Shown one piece after another: positions 9,251 to 63,019 of a stretch of DNA of 64,000 bases (position 1 is its first letter; each line of letters begins with the position of its first letter). Position numbers and translations under genes: made by a program. A model generated the notes under the pieces. It was not told the origin of the DNA and searched no databases. It worked only from the letters and a program-made list of their open reading frames with translations. Origin of the DNA: Eledone cirrhosa (taxonomy: Eukaryota); the NCBI GenBank assembly GCA_964016885.1, contig OZ024742.1, forward strand, positions 21,638,001 through 21,702,000. The letters are read 5' to 3'.

Positions 9251-9755
9251 ATGGGTATGCATTTATATATATGTGTGTGTAATTGTTTTTGTATGTGGTT
9301 GTGAGTATGTAAATATATTTTATTCTTTCCATTCTACAAAAACACTCTGGCCACCTGTGGCTTGTATGTTAACTTGACCACTCACCCCAGTCTGTGCCAT
9401 GATTCGGTCTTGTTTATCTTCTATTACAAACCCGCCTAAAAAAATGTTCCTACTATATATCTGTTGAATTACTATTCTTGGGGTTTTTACTTTTTTTTTT
9501 TTCTATTTTTTTCTATTTATTTTCTATATTTATTTATTAATTTATCTATTTATTCATTTATTTATTTACTTATTTATTTTTTTAAAAAAAGCACTCTGGC
9601 TAATTGACCACTCCCCAAAGAAAAAACGGCCTGTGCCATGTTGTGGTCCTGTGTATCTAAATACCATCCTACCCCAAAATATCCCCTCCCCCCAGCCACC
9701 ACCCCTCCCTTACCACTACCTAAATGTATAAATACCAGAACTTAATGTGACACCC

Positions 9756-9806
9756 AGCTTCCTGAAGATTTCATCTGAATGAAACTGTACTAGTCCTGTA
9801 GAAGCT
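9756..9806 (+). ncRNA. Type I hammerhead (family shared with 27.5 and 46.8 kb)
   Basis: AGCTTC CTGAAGA TTTCATCTGAAT GAAAC...GTA/GAAGCT. Stem I differs from AGATTC/GAATCT of the other copies but stays paired. Confidence 0.75.
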
Positions 9807-9892
9807 CCTTCTATTAAATAAAAAAAATTTACTCTGCCATGTATTGAGTACCTTACTTACTGTGGTTATCCCCGACTCAACCCGGGACCTAC

Positions 9893-9964: not shown

Positions 9965-10448
9965 ATACTTGGGGAGGGTCGTATTGTTGTAATAATATTG
10001 CCAAAAATAATAACAGAACACACTCACTGTTTGGTTCGTTATCGCTTCTGTATCTTTTATATCTCCATAGTTAATTCATTTGGCAATCAATGTTTATCAT
10101 TGAATGACCAACGGTTACAAATACAGATATAAATATATATATATAGTCTATCAAAGTTCTTTCGTTGCACATCTGCAACATTATCAGTTGTACTATTATG
10201 TTTCCTCCCATTGTATTGTACTGTAATGTCTACACCATTTTTATTTGAAAGATACAGAAGCGAAAACCAACCAAACAGTGAGTGTGTTCTGATCCCGCCG
10301 AGGTTGACTTTGCCTTTCATCCTTACGGGGTCGATAAAATAAACTACCAGTAATGCACTGGGTAATTGCTGGCCTTGTGCCTAAAGTAGAAACAGTTATT
10401 ATTTCTGGCAATAGTATTACAACAATATGACCCTCCCCAAGTATAATA
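9961..10448. mobile_element. Non-coding module with inverted ends (GTTATACTTGGGAGGGTC...), degenerate HHR and nested SINE fragment
   Basis: 9961-10002 is inverted at 10405-10447. Related pieces lie at ~4100, 7345, 48582-49050 and 58220. Degenerate HHR on minus strand at 10151-10193 (CTGATAA, stem II GTTGCA/TGCAAC, GAAAG). Confidence 0.7.
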
Positions 10449-15082: not shown

Positions 15083-15594
15083 TATGTATACAGACGTACA
15101 GTAGCATGTATATATATACATACATGCATACACATATATATGTACGTATGGATTCACCGAACATTTATTATAATGCTCCGTGTGTTTGTAAAGAAACATC
15201 CCGAATTAAGCCGTACAGTGTTTAGCAACCATCGTTGCCTTTTTTGTTCAACATTGACAAAGGAACGATGTACTAATTTCAAGCTTATTAGCTATCGTTA
15301 GCACCGTATACCTTCCTGCCAGATGATTTAACTTCTGAAAGTATATACTTTCCTTATGCATATTAACGGCTGAGCAGCCTAATTTGCATATCGAGTGAGT
15401 TAATCGGCCGGGCGCACCGAAAATGATAAACGGAAAAAATGAAACAAAATTTCATTTCTCACTCTTAGTACGGCTGTTACTTTAATATAAGTATGTATAC
15501 GTACATACATATATGTATACAGACGTACAGTAGTATGTATATATATACGTACATTGTAATAAATGTTCGGTGAATCCATACGTACATATATATA

Positions 15595-15602
<8 letters not shown>
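15083..15602 (-). mobile_element. ~430 nt HHR-bearing non-coding repeat unit (retrozyme-like family), slightly more than one unit plus short inversion
   Basis: TATGTATACAGACGTACAGTAG at 15083 and 15512 (period 429). Degenerate HHR at 15265-15307 (CTAACGA). Homologous to 49.2-50.0 kb and 61.5-62.6 kb. Confidence 0.85.
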
Positions 15603-15651
<49 letters not shown>

Positions 15652-16560: not shown

Positions 16561-16738
16561 TCACACACACACACACACACACACATATATACTTGTATTC
16601 TTATATATTTATACATATATACATATGTATAAACGGAAAAAATGAAACGAAATTTCATTTCTCACTCTTAGTACGGCTGTTACTTAAATATAAGTATGTA
16701 TACGTACATACATATATGTATACAGACGTACAGTAGTA

Positions 16739-16795
<57 letters not shown>

Positions 16796-27262: not shown

Positions 27263-27464
27263 TTCACAATCTGCTCTGTATGAATATTGAGTGCTAATTT
27301 TGGCATACCGCCTATGGAAGCCCCATAGCTACCATTAGACACACGTATATATATATATATATATGTTTATATATATAGGTAAGTTATTCCGGGTTGAATC
27401 GGAGGTAACCACAGTAAGTAAGGTACTCAATACATAGCAGAGTATAAAAGTTTTAATAGAGATG

Positions 27465-27515
27465 AGATTCTACAGGACTAGAACTGTTTCATTCTTTAGA
27501 AATCATCAGGAATCT
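27465..27515 (-). ncRNA. Type I hammerhead
   Basis: Minus strand: AGATTC CTGATGA TTTCTAAAGAAT GAAACAG-ttctagtc-CTGTA/GAATCT. Confidence 0.82.
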
Positions 27516-27958
27516 GGCTTTCCAAAAATAAATGTAGTGGTATTTATATCTTTTAAGGTGGTAGGAGAGGGTGGGGAGTGGGATGGGTGGAGGTCGTTGG
27601 TTGAAAGAAAAGGGAATTCATTAAAAGCTAATTCTTTAAGTCTATAGATTATATTTAGAGTGACAATGGCAGAGAGGATTCTATAAACACGTTCAGAATG
27701 GGGTGCCACTCCTAATTTTTAAGTTTCTCTTAAGCTAACAATGCCTATATTTCAGGTGTCTCTAAGGTGGTTGGGGGTCAGTCACGGTTGATGGATTTAC
27801 AGAAAAGGGTAATTCTTTAAAAACTAATTCTTTAAAGCTCTACTTAGAGTGACAAAGGCCAAGAGAATTCTATAAACAAGTTCAAAATATTGGGTGTCTA
27901 TCATTATTATTATATTTCTCTTAAGCTATATTCCAGGTGTCAACAGACATATTCACAT

Positions 27959-35951: not shown

Positions 35952-37805
35952 TTAGCCATCGGGCATTAACACTGGCTTAAGGTATTTGAAAGTTGCAAAG
36001 TTTTTGTGCATGCAGTTCGGGCAGTGTTCAGATAGTTTGTTCAGTAGCGCGCCCTTGGCGAATAAAATTTCGTAGCTCTCTGAGATACAAATTTCGCAGC
36101 ACTTGTGTCCTCCGTTGTATGAGCGCGCTTCTGGAGTATTTTCCATTTAAGCGTGAAGGTGGTGGAGTTCCTTTTGAGGTCCCAAACATAGGAGGCGAGG
36201 GTTGTCTGGTTTGATTTGTCCGGTCCTCTGAAGGAGTGGGTATGGGCATACCACGGTGTCTTAAAGTTATTGGAAGTCATGCCAATGTAAGTCTTTTTGC
36301 TGTTGCAATCATCGGTGCCTGAGATGACATTGCATTTGTATACGATATCATTTGTCAGCAATTTGTTTTCAAGTTGTCAGGCTTCCTTATTTAGGCAATT
36401 ACACAAGGCTCCAGTTCAGGGATTGGGTTCGGAGGTGGTAGGCTTATTTATTTTTTTAGAATTGTGATTGGCTATATTCCTAGCTAGGTTACGTGTGGTG
36501 GACTAGGAGAGTCTTATTGTGTTCTTATTAAAGACGATGTAGTACCTATGTTGTATGGGGAAGTGTGTGTTCAGCAATGTGAAGAAAATACTAGCTATAG
36601 GTGTAGAGACCTCTCTATTGAAGGGAGGGTTGTACCACCTAATCTGCCTATGCCTATTCCTCCTATGCAGTCTTGCGGTGGTTTCTAGGTAGGTTATCTT
36701 TTCTTTAAATCCGCTGCGGACGAGGGCGTCATTGTAGTAGGAGGCAGGGGCGTTAAAAATATCTTCATTAGCAGAGAGGCCAGAGATTCTAATAGGGACG
36801 TTTTTTACTAAGTTATCAGTGATGTTTTGGGGCTGGTTAGAATTAACATTATTATATCTAAGTGACTCATTAGGTTTGTGGTACGGGTAATAGATGGAAG
36901 TATCTAGGTCGAGAGTGACATCTAAAAAGTTGGCCCTAGTCATATTAGATTCTATAGTTATAGTAAATCCTAGATTACGGAAGAACGAGCTTAAGTTTCT
37001 CCGAAACCCATCGGTGGTTCTGGGATTAACCTTGTGCAGAGTGAAGAGGCTGTCGTCTCGGTATAAACCTCCGGTTAGGCCAGTAAAGAGGTTCTTCAGG
37101 TGGTGTAAAATGTACAGGCCCACAAGGTCACTAATTTCAGCCGAGTCACTCGCTCCCATGCAGACGTCAAATGGGGTCTGGGACTTCTTGTTGATCCAGT
37201 AAGATCCAACGTGGTATAGGAATGTCTTACGGGCATGGAGGATAACATCTTGCTCAGCATCGGTTACGGTGGTAAAATTCCTGGCAAAGGCAATTGCGCT
37301 TTCAGGAGGGGCTCCGAGATAGAAGCATAGCAGTTTTCTATGTCGAGTTGCAGGAGGCGAGTGTGGCGTTTGTCGGGTAATTCTTGGAATCAATATATTG
37401 CCTCAGATGTTCTGCTCCAGAGTGGGAGTGGTGAGGCAGCCGCAATGATGGTAGAACTCTATCTAGAATCTTCTTACTGATAGAGCCGATGTCCGAACGA
37501 GTGGGGTTGATAAGTCTCACTTATGGTTTGTTGAGGAAGTTTCCCTTATGGTCCTTCAGGGTAAAGTGCGGGGTCTTTACCTTTAAAGGTTCGGTTATGT
37601 AATTTAAGGGACTTGGCGTTTCTTTTCCGGCCGCGTTTGTCTCAGTCAATGAAATCTGTATTACCTTTTTGTAGGTGGTCTTGATGGCATTTTTTGCCAG
37701 ATTATTGTAGGTCTGTGGGTCTACCTCATAAACGTTTTTGGTTTTATCGGAGGAGACATGAAGATTAGGGGATTTTTTTATATTCCGCAATTCAGTATTT
37801 ATGTA
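35952..37805 (-). mobile_element. Decayed Penelope-like element (RT N-terminus to GIY-YIG), same subfamily as 5205-6570
   Basis: SSDKTKNVY...TLKDHK...RLINPTRSDIG...GASDSAEISDLVGL...LYRDD...NFLDVTLDL...YIGMTSNNFK...CCEIC...CMH, with several stops and frameshifts. Confidence 0.92.
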
Positions 37806-46557: not shown

Positions 46558-46654
<97 letters not shown>

Positions 46655-46741
46655 TACGTTATTCCGGGGGTTGAATCGGAGGTAACCACAGTAAGTAAGG
46701 TACTCAATACATAGCAGAGTATAACAGTTTTAATATAGATG

Positions 46742-46847
46742 AGATTCTACAGGACTAGAACTGTTTCATTCTTTAGAAATCATCACGAATCTCATACTGA
46801 TTCCTGATGATTTCTAAAAAATGAAACAGTTCTAGTCCTGTAGAATC
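46742..46847. ncRNA. Back-to-back inverted hammerhead pair (46742-46792 minus, C3 mutated; 46799-46847 plus)
   Basis: Plus: GATTC CTGATGA TTTCTAAAAAAT GAAACAG...CTGTA/GAATC; inversion axis ~46795. Confidence 0.78.
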
Positions 46848-46919
46848 TTATCTATATTAAAACTATATATATATATATATTTATATATACAAATATTAAT
46901 AAAATAGATGTTTAATTAA

Positions 46920-49149: not shown

Positions 49150-49763
49150 ACACAATTACGCCGTACAATGTTTAGGCAACCATATATATATATATATATA
49201 TATATGGTTGCCTAAACATTGTACGGCGTAATTCGGGCTGTTTGTTTGTTTATAAACAAACAAACCGAGCATTATAATAAATGTTCGGTAAACCGATACG
49301 TGCATATATATATGTGTGCATGTGTGTATATATATACATACTACTGTACGTCTGTATACATATATGTATGTACGTATACATACATATTTACATTTAAGTA
49401 AGGATCGTACTAAGAGTGAGAAATGAAATTTCGTTTCATTCTATTCCATTTATCGTTTTCGGTGTGCCCGGCTGACTGAACTCGATATGCAAATTAGGCT
49501 GCCCAGCCGTTAATATGCATAAGGAAAGTATATACTTTCAGACGTTCAACCATCTGGCAGGAAGGTATACGATGCTGACGATAGCTAATAAGCTTGAAAC
49601 TAGTACATCGTTCATGTGTCAGTGTTGAACAAAAAGGTGACGTGGTTGCCTAAACATTGTACGGCGTAATTGTATACATATATGTATGTACGTATACATA
49701 CATACTTAGATTTAAGTAAGTGCCGAACTAAGAGTGAGAAATGAAATTTCGTTTCATTCTATT

Positions 49764-49825
<62 letters not shown>

Positions 49826-49994
49826 ATAAATGTTCGGTAAATCGATACGTGCCTATATATATATGTGCATGTGTGTATATATATACATACTACTGTACGT
49901 CTGTATACATATATGTATGTACGTATACATACATACTTACATTTAAGTAAGTGCCTTACTAAGACTGAGAAATGAAATTTTGTTTCATTCTATT

Positions 49995-49999
<5 letters not shown>
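49150..49999 (+). mobile_element. Retrozyme-like ~438 nt unit with partial tandem and inverted pieces
   Basis: GGTTGCCTAAACATTGTACGGCGTAATT at 49206 and 49644; 3' segments repeated up to 49767 and 49998. Confidence 0.85.
49569..49611 (+). ncRNA. Type I hammerhead (intact)
   Basis: ACGATG CTGACGA T AGCT-aata-AGCT T GAAACTAGTA/CATCGT. Confidence 0.88.
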
Positions 50000-50058
<59 letters not shown>

Positions 50059-52758: not shown

Positions 52759-52789
<31 letters not shown>

Positions 52790-52795
<6 letters not shown>

Positions 52796-52938
52796 TTACA
52801 GCAGTGACATAAACAGGTGCTCAAGTTTCATTGGGTTCTGGGCCCCAATTTCTTCAGCCTGTCATGAAGGCTGAAGAAATTGCGGCCCAGAACCCAACGA
52901 AACTTGAGTACCTGTTTATGTCACTGCTGTAATTATTT
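52790..52938. ncRNA. Fold-back with back-to-back hammerheads (52813-52862 minus; 52868-52913 plus)
   Basis: Consensus ACAGG CTGAAGA AATTGGG...CCCAAT GAAACTTGAGTA/CCTGT; axis ~52865. The module 3' end is inverted again across (TA)n at 53264-53360. Confidence 0.75.
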
Positions 52939-53005
52939 ATACTAAACTCGTCCTATGGACTTAGTGCTTTCACTCTTGGTTATTTCCGCTTTAACTTTAA
53001 CTTCA

Positions 53006-53265
<260 letters not shown>

Positions 53266-53360
53266 TGAAGTTAAAGTTAAAGCGGAATAACCAAGAGTGA
53301 AAGCACTAAGTCCATAGGACGAGTTTAGTATAAATAATTACAACAGTGATATAAACAGGT

Positions 53361-53998: not shown

Positions 53999-54049
<51 letters not shown>

Positions 54050-54055
<6 letters not shown>

Positions 54056-55257
54056 AAAAGGTAAACACACCAAAGAGAGATATATATACAGTGCTTTATC
54101 AATAATACAGGGAAAAAAACCACCAGTGTATGGAATCTATAACCTATGAAAGGCAGACTATAGACACGATAATTAAAAATATAAATTAAAGCGTGAATAT
54201 ATACCTCTATAACTATATAACACACGTACAAATCCAAAGATATGTTTCACCAATAATTTGTTGAAAGAAATGGGTTGGTCTCGGTTCATCAGCGTGTGTA
54301 AGGCAACACTAAGAGAATTTTAAAATTGACTGTCCAGCTACACGTGGGAGAGAGAAGTCACAGGGTGTTTAAGGGCAGTGAACCAGTGGCCTCTGGGGGA
54401 CGAACTGCTAGAAAGGGCAGCCCAAAGCCACTCAGAGAAGTGTGCTCAACCAAACAGAGATAGGAAAGACTGTTATTAGGAGCGAAATATCACGATAAAT
54501 TAACGGAGGCATCGTGTCTATAGCCTGCCTTTCATAGGTTATACATTCCATACACTGGTGGGTTTTTTCCATGTATTATTGATAACGCACTGTATATCTC
54601 TCTCTGGTGTGTTACCTTTTCAACATATTGTATTTTAAAGAACTCGGGATCTCTTCTCCTTTGAGCACATTATTTACAGGGAATAGGGAGGGCCTATGCC
54701 TCCGTTAATTTATCGTGATATGTCGCTCCTAATAACAGTCTTTCCTATCTCTGTTTGGTTGAGCACACTTCTCTGAGTGGCTTTGGGCTGCCTTTTCTAG
54801 CAGTTCTTCCCTCAGAGGCCACTGGTTCACTGCCCTTAAACACGCTGTGACTTCTCTCTCCCATGTGTAGCTGTACAGTCAATTTTAAAATTCTCTTAGT
54901 GTTGTCTGAAATGTATAGCCTTACACACGCTGATAAACCGAGACTAACCCATTTCTTTCAACAAATTATTGGTGAAACATATCTTTGGATGTGTACGTGT
55001 ATTATATAGTTATAGAGGTATTTATTTACGCTTTAATTTATATTTTTAATTATCGTGTCTATAGTCTGCCTTTCATAGGTTATAGATTCCATACACTGGT
55101 GGGTTTTTTTCCCTGTATTATTGATAACGCACTGTATATCTCTCTTTGGTGTGTTACCTTTTCAACATATTGTATTTTAAAGAGCTGAGGATCTCTTCTC
55201 CCTTGAGCACATTATTTACAGGGAATAGAGAGGGCCTATGCCTCCGTTAATTTATCT

Positions 55258-55260
<3 letters not shown>
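54050..55260. mobile_element. Non-coding module: inverted unit + partial tandem (period ~541) between (TA)n tracts
   Basis: 54051-54511 is inverted at 54697-55168; ATCGTGTCTATAG at 54511 and 55052. Confidence 0.85.
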
Positions 55261-55321
<61 letters not shown>

Positions 55322-60760: not shown

Positions 60761-61817
60761 ATACTGGAGTGAAATGAAATGTTTTGCAAAGTGAAATGAA
60801 ATGTTTTGCTCAAGGGCACAACATGCACAACACGAATTGAACCCTTGAGATTATGATCTTAGACCCTCCCTTACCACTTGGCACCTCGATTAGGCATATG
60901 AATACCTAATAAAACATAATTCTATCTCATGTGGATTCGAACTCCTGTAAGGATTTTATTAGAAAAATGTCAACATCTATATACTGATGTGTTATGAACA
61001 TAACCTATATTCACGTTCTCCAGTTTGAACTGGGTTAAAAGGTTCTATATTATTGATAACCATTAAACAATATTGTCAGTTTAAATTAGAAAACTTCAGG
61101 ACAATGTTTAATGTATGCAATTATGTACTAAATAAGCAAACGGTGGTCCTAGACTCACTTTGAAATGTTTCTATTTATTTAACATTTGTAATATTTGCCA
61201 TGCCATTAAATAGATTTAGTATAAGTATGTAGTCTGTGCAGAATTGCTTTATATACATCATCTACGTTCGTTGCTCCCTCGCACGCTCCTTCTCACATTC
61301 TCTCTCTATCTTACTCTAGCCTCTCTCTTAATCTCTACGCTTTCTTTCCCCTCTCTCTCATAGTCTCTACACTCTCTCTTCGCCCCTTTCTATGTATATC
61401 TCACACAGTCGATCCCACGTAATGTCCTCAAATCTCTTTTAATTGATTTTGCTCCACACTTTTCTATCTATCTGTTTATTATTCCTTCACATACCCACTT
61501 CGTCTTTATATTCTATGCATACGTCTTTATATATATATATATATATATAAACGGAAAAAATGAAACGAAATTTCATTTCCCACTCTTAGTACGGCTGTTA
61601 CTTAAATATAAGTATGTACACGTACATACATATATGTATACAGACGTACAGTAGTATGTATATATATATATATACATACATGCACACATATATATATGTA
61701 CGTATGGATTCACCGAACATTTATTATAATGCTCGGTGTGTTTGTAAACAAACATCCCGTATTAAGCCGTAGTGTCTAGCAACCATCGTTGCTCGTTTGT
61801 TCAACACTGACAAAGGA

Positions 61818-61860
61818 ACGCTGTACTAGTTTCCAGCTTATTAGCTATCGTCAGCAACGT
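61818..61860 (-). ncRNA. Type I hammerhead
   Basis: Minus strand: ACGTTG CTGACGA TAGCT-aata-AGCTG GAAACTAGTA/CAGCGT. Confidence 0.87.
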
Positions 61861-62237
61861 ATACTTTCCTGCCAGATTGTTGAACGTATATACTTACCTT
61901 ATGCATATTAACGGCTGAGTAGCCCAATTTGCATATCTAGTGGGTTAATCGGCCGGGTGCACCGAAAACGATAAACGGAAAAAATGAAACGAAATTTCAT
62001 TTCCCACTCTTAGTACGACTGTTACTTAAATATAAGTATGTACACGTACATACATATATGTATACAGACGTACAGTAGTATGTATATATATATACATACA
62101 TGCACACATATATATATGTACGTATGGATTCACCGAACATTTATTATAATGCTCGGTGTGTTTGTAAACAAACATCCCGTATTAAGCCGTAGTGTCTAGC
62201 AACCATCGTTGCTCGTTTGTTCAACACTGACAAAGGA

Positions 62238-62280
62238 ACGCTATACTAGTTTCAAGCTTATTAGCTATCGTCAGCAACGT
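62238..62280 (-). ncRNA. Type I hammerhead
   Basis: Minus strand: ACGTTG CTGACGA TAGCT-aata-AGCTT GAAACTAGTA/TAGCGT. Confidence 0.85.
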
Positions 62281-62365
62281 ATACCTTCCTGCCAGATTGT
62301 TGAACGTATATACTTACCTTATGCATATTAACGTATATACGTTCAACAATCTGGCAGGAAGGTAT

Positions 62366-62408
62366 ACGTTGCTGACGATAGCTAATAAGCTTGAAACTAG
62401 TACAGCGT
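62366..62408 (+). ncRNA. Type I hammerhead
   Basis: ACGTTG CTGACGA TAGCT-aata-AGCTT GAAACTAGTA/CAGCGT. Confidence 0.87.
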
Positions 62409-63019
62409 TCCTTTGTCAGTGTTGAACAAACGAGCAACGATGTTGCTTGACACTACGGCTTAATACGGGATGTTTGTTTACAAACACACCGAGCACTATA
62501 ATAAATGTTCGGTGAATCCATACGTACATATATATGTGTGCATGTATGTATATATATATACATACTACTGTACGTCTGTATACATATATGTATGTACGTG
62601 TACATACTTATATATATATATATATATATACTATAAAACGAAAGGAGCTGTGTGGTTACTAAAAACAAGGTTTAGGATGGTGGTTGGGACGGAACAGGAG
62701 GAGAAAGGAAGAAAGGAGTTTCCATCGTCAGCTGTAAATGTTTCCTGAACCGATGTTTCCGCGCTGAATTACAGGACATCGGTGTAGTTCGGGTGCGCCC
62801 GAGGCCTTTTATTAATCAAAAGGCCAGGTGGAAAGGGAGAGAGAAAGAGAGAAAAAAACGGAGAGAGAAAAGAGAGAGAAAGGAGGAAGAACAGGGGTAG
62901 GGAGATGAGGAGAGAGTAAGAAGGGGAAAAAATAGGAAAGGAATAGAAGAAAAAAAGTGTACAGGTCCCGTCATGGGAAGACACAGGTGAAAGAAACATG
63001 CAAAAAAGTAACCGTGGAA

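What the first reader, a model, noticed from the sequence alone, without database searches (positions are those of the whole stretch)
61549..62610. A ~420-440 nt non-coding, hammerhead-bearing repeat unit: candidate retrozyme/circRNA family
Seen: one unit occurs at 15.08-15.6, 49.2-50.0 and 61.5-62.6 kb (fragment at 16.63 kb), each slightly longer than one period (429, 438, 424). The same seamless end-to-start junction (TTTATCGTTTTCGGTG, one substitution in the 15 kb copy) appears at all three loci, with one HHR per unit and no meaningful ORF. Stem I stays paired while changing (ACGATG/CATCGT versus ACGTTG/CAGCGT). Established: metazoan non-LTR retrozymes are tandem type I HHR repeats processed to small circular RNAs and thought to be mobilised by PLEs. 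Inference: an octopus-type retrozyme reverse-transcribed from a circular or concatemeric RNA by the local PLE proteins.
Basis: partly seen in the sequence, partly recalled or inferred. Interest (0 to 1): 0.9.

Follow-up and report, generated by a model that had tools for sequence, protein, structure and literature searches.

The report
Hammerhead retrozyme hitch-hiking on Penelope enzymes
This is a small non-coding repeat with a hammerhead ribozyme motif and over ten thousand copies in this animal genome; its copies end at the two fixed points typical of Penelope-type jumping genes, so it is likely pasted by their enzymes, probably from a small circular RNA, a step so far mostly hypothesised.

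Summary
The repeat is real: a 424-nt non-coding unit with a type I hammerhead, 10,046 exact cores genome-wide, dispersed or in tandem arrays. It is a new family of the known non-LTR retrozyme class, with no coding sequence attached.

Its insertions show Penelope-like (PLE) anatomy. 125 of 149 arm ends fall at two fixed sites about 56 nt apart, mostly in (TA)n. 5' ends are scattered. All 29 classifiable head-to-head insertions have one end of each kind. This matches the two internal reverse-transcription start sites shown in vitro for a lizard PLE.

In a very young sister family (466 nt, 54% identical), most inherited variants are fixed in every unit of an insertion, in nested steps. That implies a one-unit bottleneck, best explained by rolling-circle copying of a ribozyme-cut circle.

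Not shown: expression, cleavage, circles, or which PLE helps. Corrections: the 'junction' is the long start site, not the cut site; the 15-kb core is mutated; the 61.5-kb locus is 1.86 units plus an inverted arm. Earlier scan notes on other genomes found PLE stumps, not this family.

The parts
61547..62333 (-). Long arm, 1.86 tandem units in hammerhead sense; 5' start at unit position u58 (62333), 3' end at the long site L (about u421-424). Unit numbering: u1 = 61970, u424 = 61547.
   Evidence: the two tandem copies differ at 4 of 249 compared columns
62320..62616 (+). Inverted 5'-truncated arm (from u64), joined head-to-head, ending at the short site S (about u362-368) in (TA)n
61818..61860 (-). 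Type I hammerhead motif, downstream copy: CUGACGA at 61854, predicted cut after 61824, palindromic 2-bp stem III (ACUAGU), stem II closed by U-G here (U-U in most copies)
62238..62280 (-). Type I hammerhead motif, upstream copy: core at 62274, predicted cut after 62244
62366..62408 (+). Third hammerhead motif, in the inverted arm: core at 62372, predicted cut after 62402
61824..62243 (-). Predicted 420-nt cut-to-cut monomer (candidate circular RNA); 37% GC, 70% paired when folded as a circle
   Evidence: prediction only; -133.6 kcal/mol against -95.1 +/- 6.1 for 60 shuffles
61547..61602 (-). About 56-nt 'tail' between the short and long end sites (u369-424), present at only one end of the insertion
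61927..61934 (-). ATGCAAAT octamer (u37-44), identical in the 54%-identical sister family; possible snRNA-type promoter element (untested lead)
61528..61550 (.). (TA)n target tract at the L end; a second tract at about 62603-62632 flanks the S end
15083..15547 (-). Older copy (u303 through u424/u1 to u338) with a mutated core at 15301; a short inverted piece follows at about 15552-15605
16629..16782 (-). 5'-truncated stump (about u271-424) ending at the L site in a TA tract
49204..50002 (+). Older subfamily copy (u185 through u424/u1 to u210, intact core at 49575) followed by two L-ended stumps (49671-49771, 49820-50002)

Best explanation
The 424-nt unit is a high-copy non-coding repeat with a type I hammerhead motif whose insertions end at two fixed points about 56 nt apart, mostly in (TA)n tracts; it is likely a non-autonomous passenger of a Penelope-like element (PLE), probably copied from a ribozyme-cut, circularised monomer RNA. 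Steps: (1) a tandem locus is transcribed (inferred). (2) Two neighbouring hammerheads pair through the palindromic stem III and release a 420-nt monomer that a host ligase closes (inferred from related retrozymes). (3) A PLE RT-endonuclease nicks both strands of a (TA)n tract and primes one strand at the long site and the other at the short site (end pattern shown; enzyme inferred). (4) RT runs round the template, across the cut site, and stops at variable points (shown in DNA). (5) The two cDNAs join head-to-head, or only one is kept (shown). (6) Some arrays later expand locally (shown by periodic variant patterns). PLE mobilisation alone I put at about 0.9; the whole chain with a circular template at about 0.6.
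For: Two fixed 3' ends: 125 of 149 arms end in windows covering 36 of 424 positions; 29 of 29 classifiable head-to-head insertions are one L plus one S, p = 2e-9; held-out loci 22 of 22. After the 23-nt tail motif the genome has C (next unit) 3,486 times, A (TA tract) 3,210 times, G/T 221 times. A coding PLE-like family in this genome has the same two-end, (TA)n, head-to-head anatomy, ends about 65-70 nt apart. The lizard PLE PAc primes at two internal sites that bound the tail (PMC11167929). Template longer than one linear monomer: 99 of 125 S/L arms cross the cut site and 1 of 149 starts near it. The cut site is seamless: indel in 1 of 186 family-B copies, deletion in 2 of 256 family-A copies. 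One-unit bottleneck: in short family-B insertions 20 of 25 inherited variants and 4 of 19 private ones are in every unit, usually in both arms, in a nested series. Family A: common variants are shared by both copies in 138 of 178 tandem and 140 of 170 inverted comparisons. Ribozyme structure: stem I pair u114:u150 is U-G 95, G-U 9, A-U 8 of 119; the sister family keeps the core and stem III while rewriting stems I and II.
Against: No helper PLE with matching sequence was found among the two coding families examined. Stem II in family A is closed by U-U in 115 of 119 copies rather than the conserved G10.1-C11.1 (PMC4209133). Forming both cores in the natural dimer costs 6.6 kcal/mol over the predicted minimum; the hammerhead region alone folds at only z = -1.8. 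Only 15 of 101 insertions have two tandem hammerheads. Long arrays exist (about 32 and 75 units in family B, 24 or more in family A) and could supply linear multimers. L282, L271 and L197 show alternating or periodic units that a single monomer cannot give. For PAc, ribozyme cleavage was not needed for insertion and uncut RNA was the main substrate. In Xenopus only 1 of 9 retrozyme dimers cleaved in vitro.
Confidence: 0.6

Rival explanations
1. Same PLE helper, but the template is an uncut linear multimer transcribed from tandem arrays; the hammerhead is a passenger inherited from the PLE terminal repeat.
For: Long arrays exist. Some insertions hold alternating or periodic units (L282, L271, L197). 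PAc uses uncut RNA in vitro. Family A's stem II closure is non-canonical.
Against: The long arrays are internally mixed (3 of 79 variant-by-array cases fixed), whereas short insertions carry 24 variants fixed in all units, 4 of them private. A linear multimer would pass a new mutation to one unit only. The nested 429T, 381C, 413G, 438G series needs repeated one-unit bottlenecks. Ribozyme stems are rewritten but stay paired between families.
Confidence: 0.25
2. The ribozyme releases linear monomers and the RT jumps repeatedly from the 5' end of one monomer to the 3' end of the same or another, building concatemers without a covalent circle.
For: Explains the one-unit bottleneck and occasional mixed units. 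Template jumping by non-LTR RTs is recalled knowledge.
Against: No pile-up of 5' ends at the cut site (1 of 149) and almost no indels there (1 of 186; 2 of 256); jumping usually leaves both (recalled).
Confidence: 0.08
3. The units are 5'-truncated terminal-repeat stumps of a coding PLE whose full-length master I did not sample.
For: The end anatomy is the same as that of PLE stumps, which are common in this genome. Earlier scan notes found this in other genomes.
Against: Upstream of u1 lies u424 of the previous unit, not an ORF. 0 of 131 loci have same-strand PLE coding sequence within 500 bp upstream. 6,696 of 6,917 tail motifs are followed by C or A; of 30 of the 221 exceptions examined, 20 run into the next unit, 7 into TA, 3 into other non-coding sequence. 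The 54%-identical sister family also reads through the junction.
Confidence: 0.05
4. A satellite spread by unequal crossing-over and DNA-level duplication, with a hammerhead-like motif by descent or chance.
For: Long arrays with periodic variants show local DNA-level expansion.
Against: Dispersal over many contigs, fixed 3' ends with variable 5' ends, (TA)n targets and the strict L-plus-S rule are retrotransposition marks.
Confidence: 0.02

Closest known systems
Metazoan non-LTR retrozymes (Cervera and de la Pena 2020, PMC7229834: Acropora, Mytilus galloprovincialis 350-390 nt, axolotl 330-350 nt)
   Same: Non-coding tandem units, one type I hammerhead each, low GC, highly self-paired predicted monomer, thousands of copies, co-existing with PLEs.
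   Different: Unit is 424 nt (sister 466 nt), above the 170-400 nt quoted for invertebrate circles. Circles and cleavage were shown there and are untested here. Insertion ends, inversions and tails are not described in that paper's main text ('inverted', 'truncat', 'microsatellite', 'octopus', 'cephalopod': 0 hits).
Retrozymes as non-autonomous PLE derivatives (Li, Clavereau and Pollet, bioRxiv 10.64898/2026.07.22.740005)
   Same: Same conclusion that PLEs mobilise retrozymes; monomers, dimers and multimers dispersed or clustered.
   Different: Their evidence is co-occurrence and pLTR homology in 35 genomes with no mollusc; 'tail' and 'initiation' do not occur in the text. Here there is no pLTR homology to a sampled coding PLE, but there is direct insertion anatomy and a haplotype bottleneck.
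PLE insertion units with pLTR, inverted 5'-truncated copy and tail (Craig et al. 2021, PMC8557442; PAc, Frangieh et al. 2024, PMC11167929)
   Same: Partial tandems, head-to-head inversion, tail at one end, (TA)n preference, two internal RT start sites downstream of the hammerhead.
   Different: No ORF. Tail about 56 nt (68-73 nt in the sister family) instead of 30-40. Start sites lie about 217 and 277 nt after the cut site. One long plus one short end in all 29 classifiable inversions; in vitro PAc showed no strand difference.
Non-autonomous Chlamys elements such as MRC1 (PMC8557442)
   Same: Non-coding, pLTR-forming, multicopy head-to-tail insertions moved by a PLE.
   Different: Those generally resemble their helper at the 3' end, and most Chlamys lack hammerheads.
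Newt satellite 2 (cited in PMC2220036; Coats et al. 1994 not read)
   Same: Tandem type I hammerhead repeat; reported internal snRNA-type promoter, and an octamer is conserved here between both families.
   Different: Promoter function untested here; that an octamer belongs to snRNA promoters is recalled knowledge.

Membership tests
Non-LTR retrozyme | Short tandem repeat unit (hundreds of nt), low GC, no protein | tested here: met
   424-nt period, 37% GC, longest stop-free frame 62 aa; arrays of 24 or more units
Non-LTR retrozyme | One type I hammerhead per unit: core, helix I about 6 bp, helix II about 4 bp, short palindromic helix III | tested here: met
   helix II closing pair is U-U in family A, G-C in family B
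Non-LTR retrozyme | [quoted passage not shown] | tested here: met
   15 of 101 insertions, including 61547-62333
Non-LTR retrozyme | Not merely the terminal repeat of a coding element | tested here: met
   0 of 131 loci with same-strand PLE coding upstream. Sampled, not exhaustive.
Non-LTR retrozyme | Self-cleavage of the RNA | not testable with these tools
   Folding predictions only
Non-LTR retrozyme | Expressed as monomeric circular RNA | not testable with these tools
   Only indirect DNA evidence; see Tried and rejected for the run search
PLE-mobilised sequence | Two fixed 3' ends bounding a tail, variable 5' truncation | tested here: met
   125 of 149 arms; 84 of 98 in held-out loci
PLE-mobilised sequence | Head-to-head inverted 5'-truncated arm, tail at one end | tested here: met
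   43 of 101 insertions inverted; 29 of 29 classifiable are L plus S
PLE-mobilised sequence | Microsatellite target bias | tested here: met
   At least 6 nt of (TA)n directly after 42 of 67 L ends, 24 of 58 S ends, 4 of 24 other ends
PLE-mobilised sequence | Sequence match to an autonomous partner's terminal repeat | tested here: inconclusive
   None in two coding families sampled; the RT search had 42,169 candidates of which 150 were scored
Autonomous PLE | RT plus GIY-YIG open reading frame | tested here: not met
Plant LTR retrozyme | Type III hammerhead in LTRs, PBS, PPT, 4-bp target duplication | tested here: not met
   The hammerhead is type I, the units are tandem without LTRs; PBS and PPT were not searched separately

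The most novel reading that the evidence does not exclude
This genome records rolling-circle retrotransposition directly: ribozyme-cut monomer circles are copied round and round by a PLE enzyme pair that always primes one target strand at the long start site and the other at the short one, so each insertion is a clone of one RNA circle. The very young 466-nt sister family would then be an active substrate with which to reconstitute both the retrozyme life cycle and the unexplained PLE inversion-and-tail step.
Probability: 0.5. Interest if true: 0.72.

Novelty: new member of a known kind. Interest (0 to 1): 0.5.

Why it matters
How animal retrozymes get back into the genome is a stated hypothesis: circles copied by a PLE (PMC7229834; bioRxiv 2026.07.22.740005, which says the mechanism remains to be elucidated). 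The insertion ends here carry the PLE signature in a family with no coding part. The variant pattern in the young sister family points to a single-unit template. The one-long-one-short rule also constrains the PLE mechanism itself, suggesting that the two start sites found in vitro are used on opposite strands of one event. With roughly 37,000 insertions estimated for family A, it is also a sizeable repeat and a possible source of small circular and double-stranded RNA. The class itself is not new.

Tried and rejected
Rfam at E <= 1: no hammerhead among the 150 of 229 matches shown; those shown are sub-threshold, nearly all miRNA models on palindromes.

Expression: no RNA holder listed among 6 runs, which is no evidence either way. 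Contigs of four runs of unrecorded kind were laid; they cannot show strand, ends or circles.

An apparent rule that u377 is T only in internal copies, and a similar pattern at u106, was rejected. Loci L001-L030 were chosen by best match to a query carrying those alleles across the junction, so they were left out.

Helper search: the window's PLE fragments gave no Pfam match. A 714-aa ORF gave no match above cut-off in Pfam or PDB. One Pfam family was not in the library. The PLE fused head-to-head to a unit at L137 belongs to a family with a different hammerhead and no match to the unit.

A mismatch-tolerant copy count did not run, so exact-core counts are lower bounds.

The octamer is not unusually conserved within family A (rank 61 of 249 windows; 178 of 214 copies intact) and is absent from the stretches checked in three other hammerhead repeats.

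Literature: 'retrozyme'+'octopus', 'hammerhead'+'Penelope'+'octopus' and searches found no description of this family or of retrozyme insertion tails. The library covers open-access papers only; supplements, Repbase and Dfam were not seen, and the supplements of PMC7229834 and PMC8557442 may list cephalopod families.

Full report
Observation. The unit is present at 15083-15547, 16629-16782, 49204-50002 and 61547-62616. I number it on the hammerhead-sense strand from u1 = 61970 to u424 = 61547. A descriptor scan finds CUGACGA...GAAA-CUAG-UA with a 6-bp stem I at 61854(-), 62274(-), 62372(+) and 49575(+); the predicted cut is after u147. The 15-kb core is mutated. The flagged locus is a 1.86-unit arm plus an inverted 297-bp arm between (TA)n tracts. 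The longest stop-free frame is 62 aa. Rfam showed no hammerhead among 150 of 229 listed matches. The host is not identified by any search; G000 has 3.0 Gb in 1,796 contigs.

Abundance. The exact 31-nt core occurs 10,046 times, the reversed control 0 times. Eighty evenly spaced 10-kb stretches of contigs C1-C4 held 11 hits in 9 stretches, one of them the sister family. Ten in 0.8 Mb extrapolates to about 37,000 insertions (95% interval 18,000-69,000), assuming C1-C4 are typical.

Ribozyme. Stem I has 6 bp and extends by further helices. Stem II is 4 bp with a 4-nt loop, closed by U-U in 115 of 119 copies. Stem III is 2 bp and palindromic, the design that PMC4209133 says works as a dimer (passages). 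Pair u114:u150 is U-G 95, G-U 9, A-U 8, U-U 4, C-G 1, gapped 2 of 119. These are a few subfamily events, not independent ones, and that set includes arrays and core-selected loci. Stronger evidence is the sister family B found at L056: 54% identical overall, same core and stem III, stem I rewritten to AUAUUG/CAAUAU and stem II to G-AUGU...ACAU-C, all paired. The monomer folded as a circle gives z = -6.3 against 60 shuffles, partly from TA/CA palindromes. The ribozyme region alone gives z = -1.8, and holding both cores open in the dimer costs 6.6 kcal/mol. Activity is therefore plausible, not shown.

Insertion anatomy. I left out L001-L030 (chosen by a junction-spanning query), duplicates and edge-cut clusters. 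The remaining 89 loci gave 101 insertions and 149 arms; one insertion is a family-B tail. 3' ends: 67 at u406-424 (L), 58 at u357-373 (S), 24 elsewhere. Forty-three insertions are head-to-head. In 29 both ends are classifiable and all 29 are one L plus one S (p = 2e-9); 14 have one unclassed end. The windows were set; in the held-out loci L141-L196, 84 of 98 ends fit and 22 of 22 pairs are L plus S; in the random stretches 10 of 12 and 2 of 2. 5' starts are scattered, 1 of 149 near the cut site against 6 expected; core-selected loci are biased against such starts, and some starts at u1 are alignment breaks. 99 of 125 S/L arms cross the cut site (6 of 10 in the random set). Genome-wide, the tail motif is followed by C 3,486 times, A 3,210 times and G/T 221 times. 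This is the PLE pattern of PMC8557442 (passages). PMC11167929 (parts 1-2 of 4 read) showed that PAc primes at two internal sites that bound the tail. Family B has the same two sites at homologous hairpins, and a coding PLE-like family of this genome has two ends about 65-70 nt apart.

Not a stump of a coding element. None of 131 loci has same-strand PLE coding sequence within 500 bp upstream of a unit, using six window ORF fragments as queries; distant PLE clades could be missed. Of 30 of the 221 tail exceptions, 20 continue into the next unit, 7 into TA and 3 into other non-coding sequence. Two coding families showed no match to A or B outside the TA-rich part. The 714-aa ORF is placed by motifs seen by eye and by Atlas neighbours carrying HTH_animal, GIY-YIG and RVT_1 at 0.96-0.99; Pfam and PDB gave nothing above cut-off. 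The helper remains unidentified.

Template. Family B has 967 exact cores. I examined 26 insertions with 214 copies; 17 were picked for identity over b1-333, so their variation shows mainly outside that part. In short insertions, at columns covered by three or more copies, inherited variants were in all copies 20 times, in one 4 times and in some once; private variants were in all copies 4 times, in one 14 times and in some once. The fixed variants nest (429T in 11 insertions, 381C in 6, 413G in 2, 438G in 1; separately 336A then 424G, and 110A then 23C with 326T) and usually span both arms. In the three long arrays only 3 of 79 cases were fixed. A read-through multimer would pass a new mutation to one unit, so repeated fixation needs a one-unit bottleneck followed by multi-unit copying. 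The cut site has an indel in 1 of 186 B copies and a deletion in 2 of 256 A copies (insertions not counted in A), which favours a covalent circle over jumping between linear monomers. Against a pure monomer model: L282, L271 and L197 carry alternating or periodic units, and long arrays could supply some linear templates. In family A, variants seen in 10 or more insertions are shared by both copies in 138 of 178 tandem and 140 of 170 inverted comparisons.

Comparison. It works like, and meets the sequence-level criteria of, a non-LTR retrozyme (PMC7229834: sections 14 and 17 and passages); cleavage and circular RNA could not be tested. PLE mobilisation was proposed there and argued from co-occurrence and pLTR homology in bioRxiv 10.64898/2026.07.22.740005 (parts 1-3 of 5 read; term search). 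PMC7761336 and PMC2220036 were seen as passages only. Seven searches found no description of this family or of retrozyme insertion tails; supplements and repeat databases were not seen. Earlier scan notes on other genomes describe PLE stumps, and none exist for this genome.

Verdict. A real, high-copy new family of a known class. Its value lies in the DNA evidence for PLE-driven insertion (about 0.9) and for a monomer, probably circular, template (about 0.6). Interest 0.5.

Noticed in passing
L056:730-1253 (G000:C2, 105.0 Mb); L271-L287; L318-L330: Sister family B: 466-nt unit, 54% identical to A, G-C-closed stem II, 967 exact cores, many copies 100% identical over 341 nt, ends at b393-399 and b466. 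Probably very recently active.
   Followed up: yes
L144:300-1950; L172:1660-2150: A third hammerhead repeat with a 310-nt period, palindromic stem III CGCG, tandem and inverted arms and two ends about 30 nt apart.
   Followed up: partly
L206:361-2814; window 35958-37700, 46654-46864, 27379-27647, 9727-9884: A coding PLE-like family (714-aa ORF; RT, Cys linker and GIY-YIG-like motifs by eye, Neptune-like by recalled criteria) with many open frames near 758 aa, its own hammerhead and two ends about 65-70 nt apart.
   Followed up: partly
window 19262, 22881, 30549, 46458, 46965, 47262, 7539: Further hammerhead motifs of at least three other repeat families in the window. Several families in this genome, including family A, have U-U at the base of stem II.
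   Followed up: no
L137:241-478 and 1230-2487 (G000:C1, 18.49 Mb): A unit arm is fused head-to-head at its 5' end to the 3' part of a coding PLE, and the fusion is present twice in inverted orientation. It could be one event with two templates; single locus.
   Followed up: partly
L197:2515-7266; L271:3550-8751; L320-L323: Arrays bounded by normal L and S ends but with two-unit, four-unit or longer periodic variants, showing multimer templates or later local expansion.
   Followed up: partly
run X5 laid on window 61735-61915: A small run of unrecorded kind (88 million letters) shows clustered A>G differences in low-depth contigs. This would fit A-to-I editing of the fold-back RNA, but the run is not on record as RNA and alleles look the same.
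   Followed up: no
runs X4 and X6: Runs labelled as two other organisms hold parts of the unit at low depth (3 and 14 contigs laid); whether this is a related host or carry-over is unknown.
   Followed up: no
window about 10283-10400 and ten or more other places; 52787-53360; 54048-55263: Another abundant short repeat of about 120-230 bp and two long inverted-repeat structures seen in the self-comparison.
   Followed up: no
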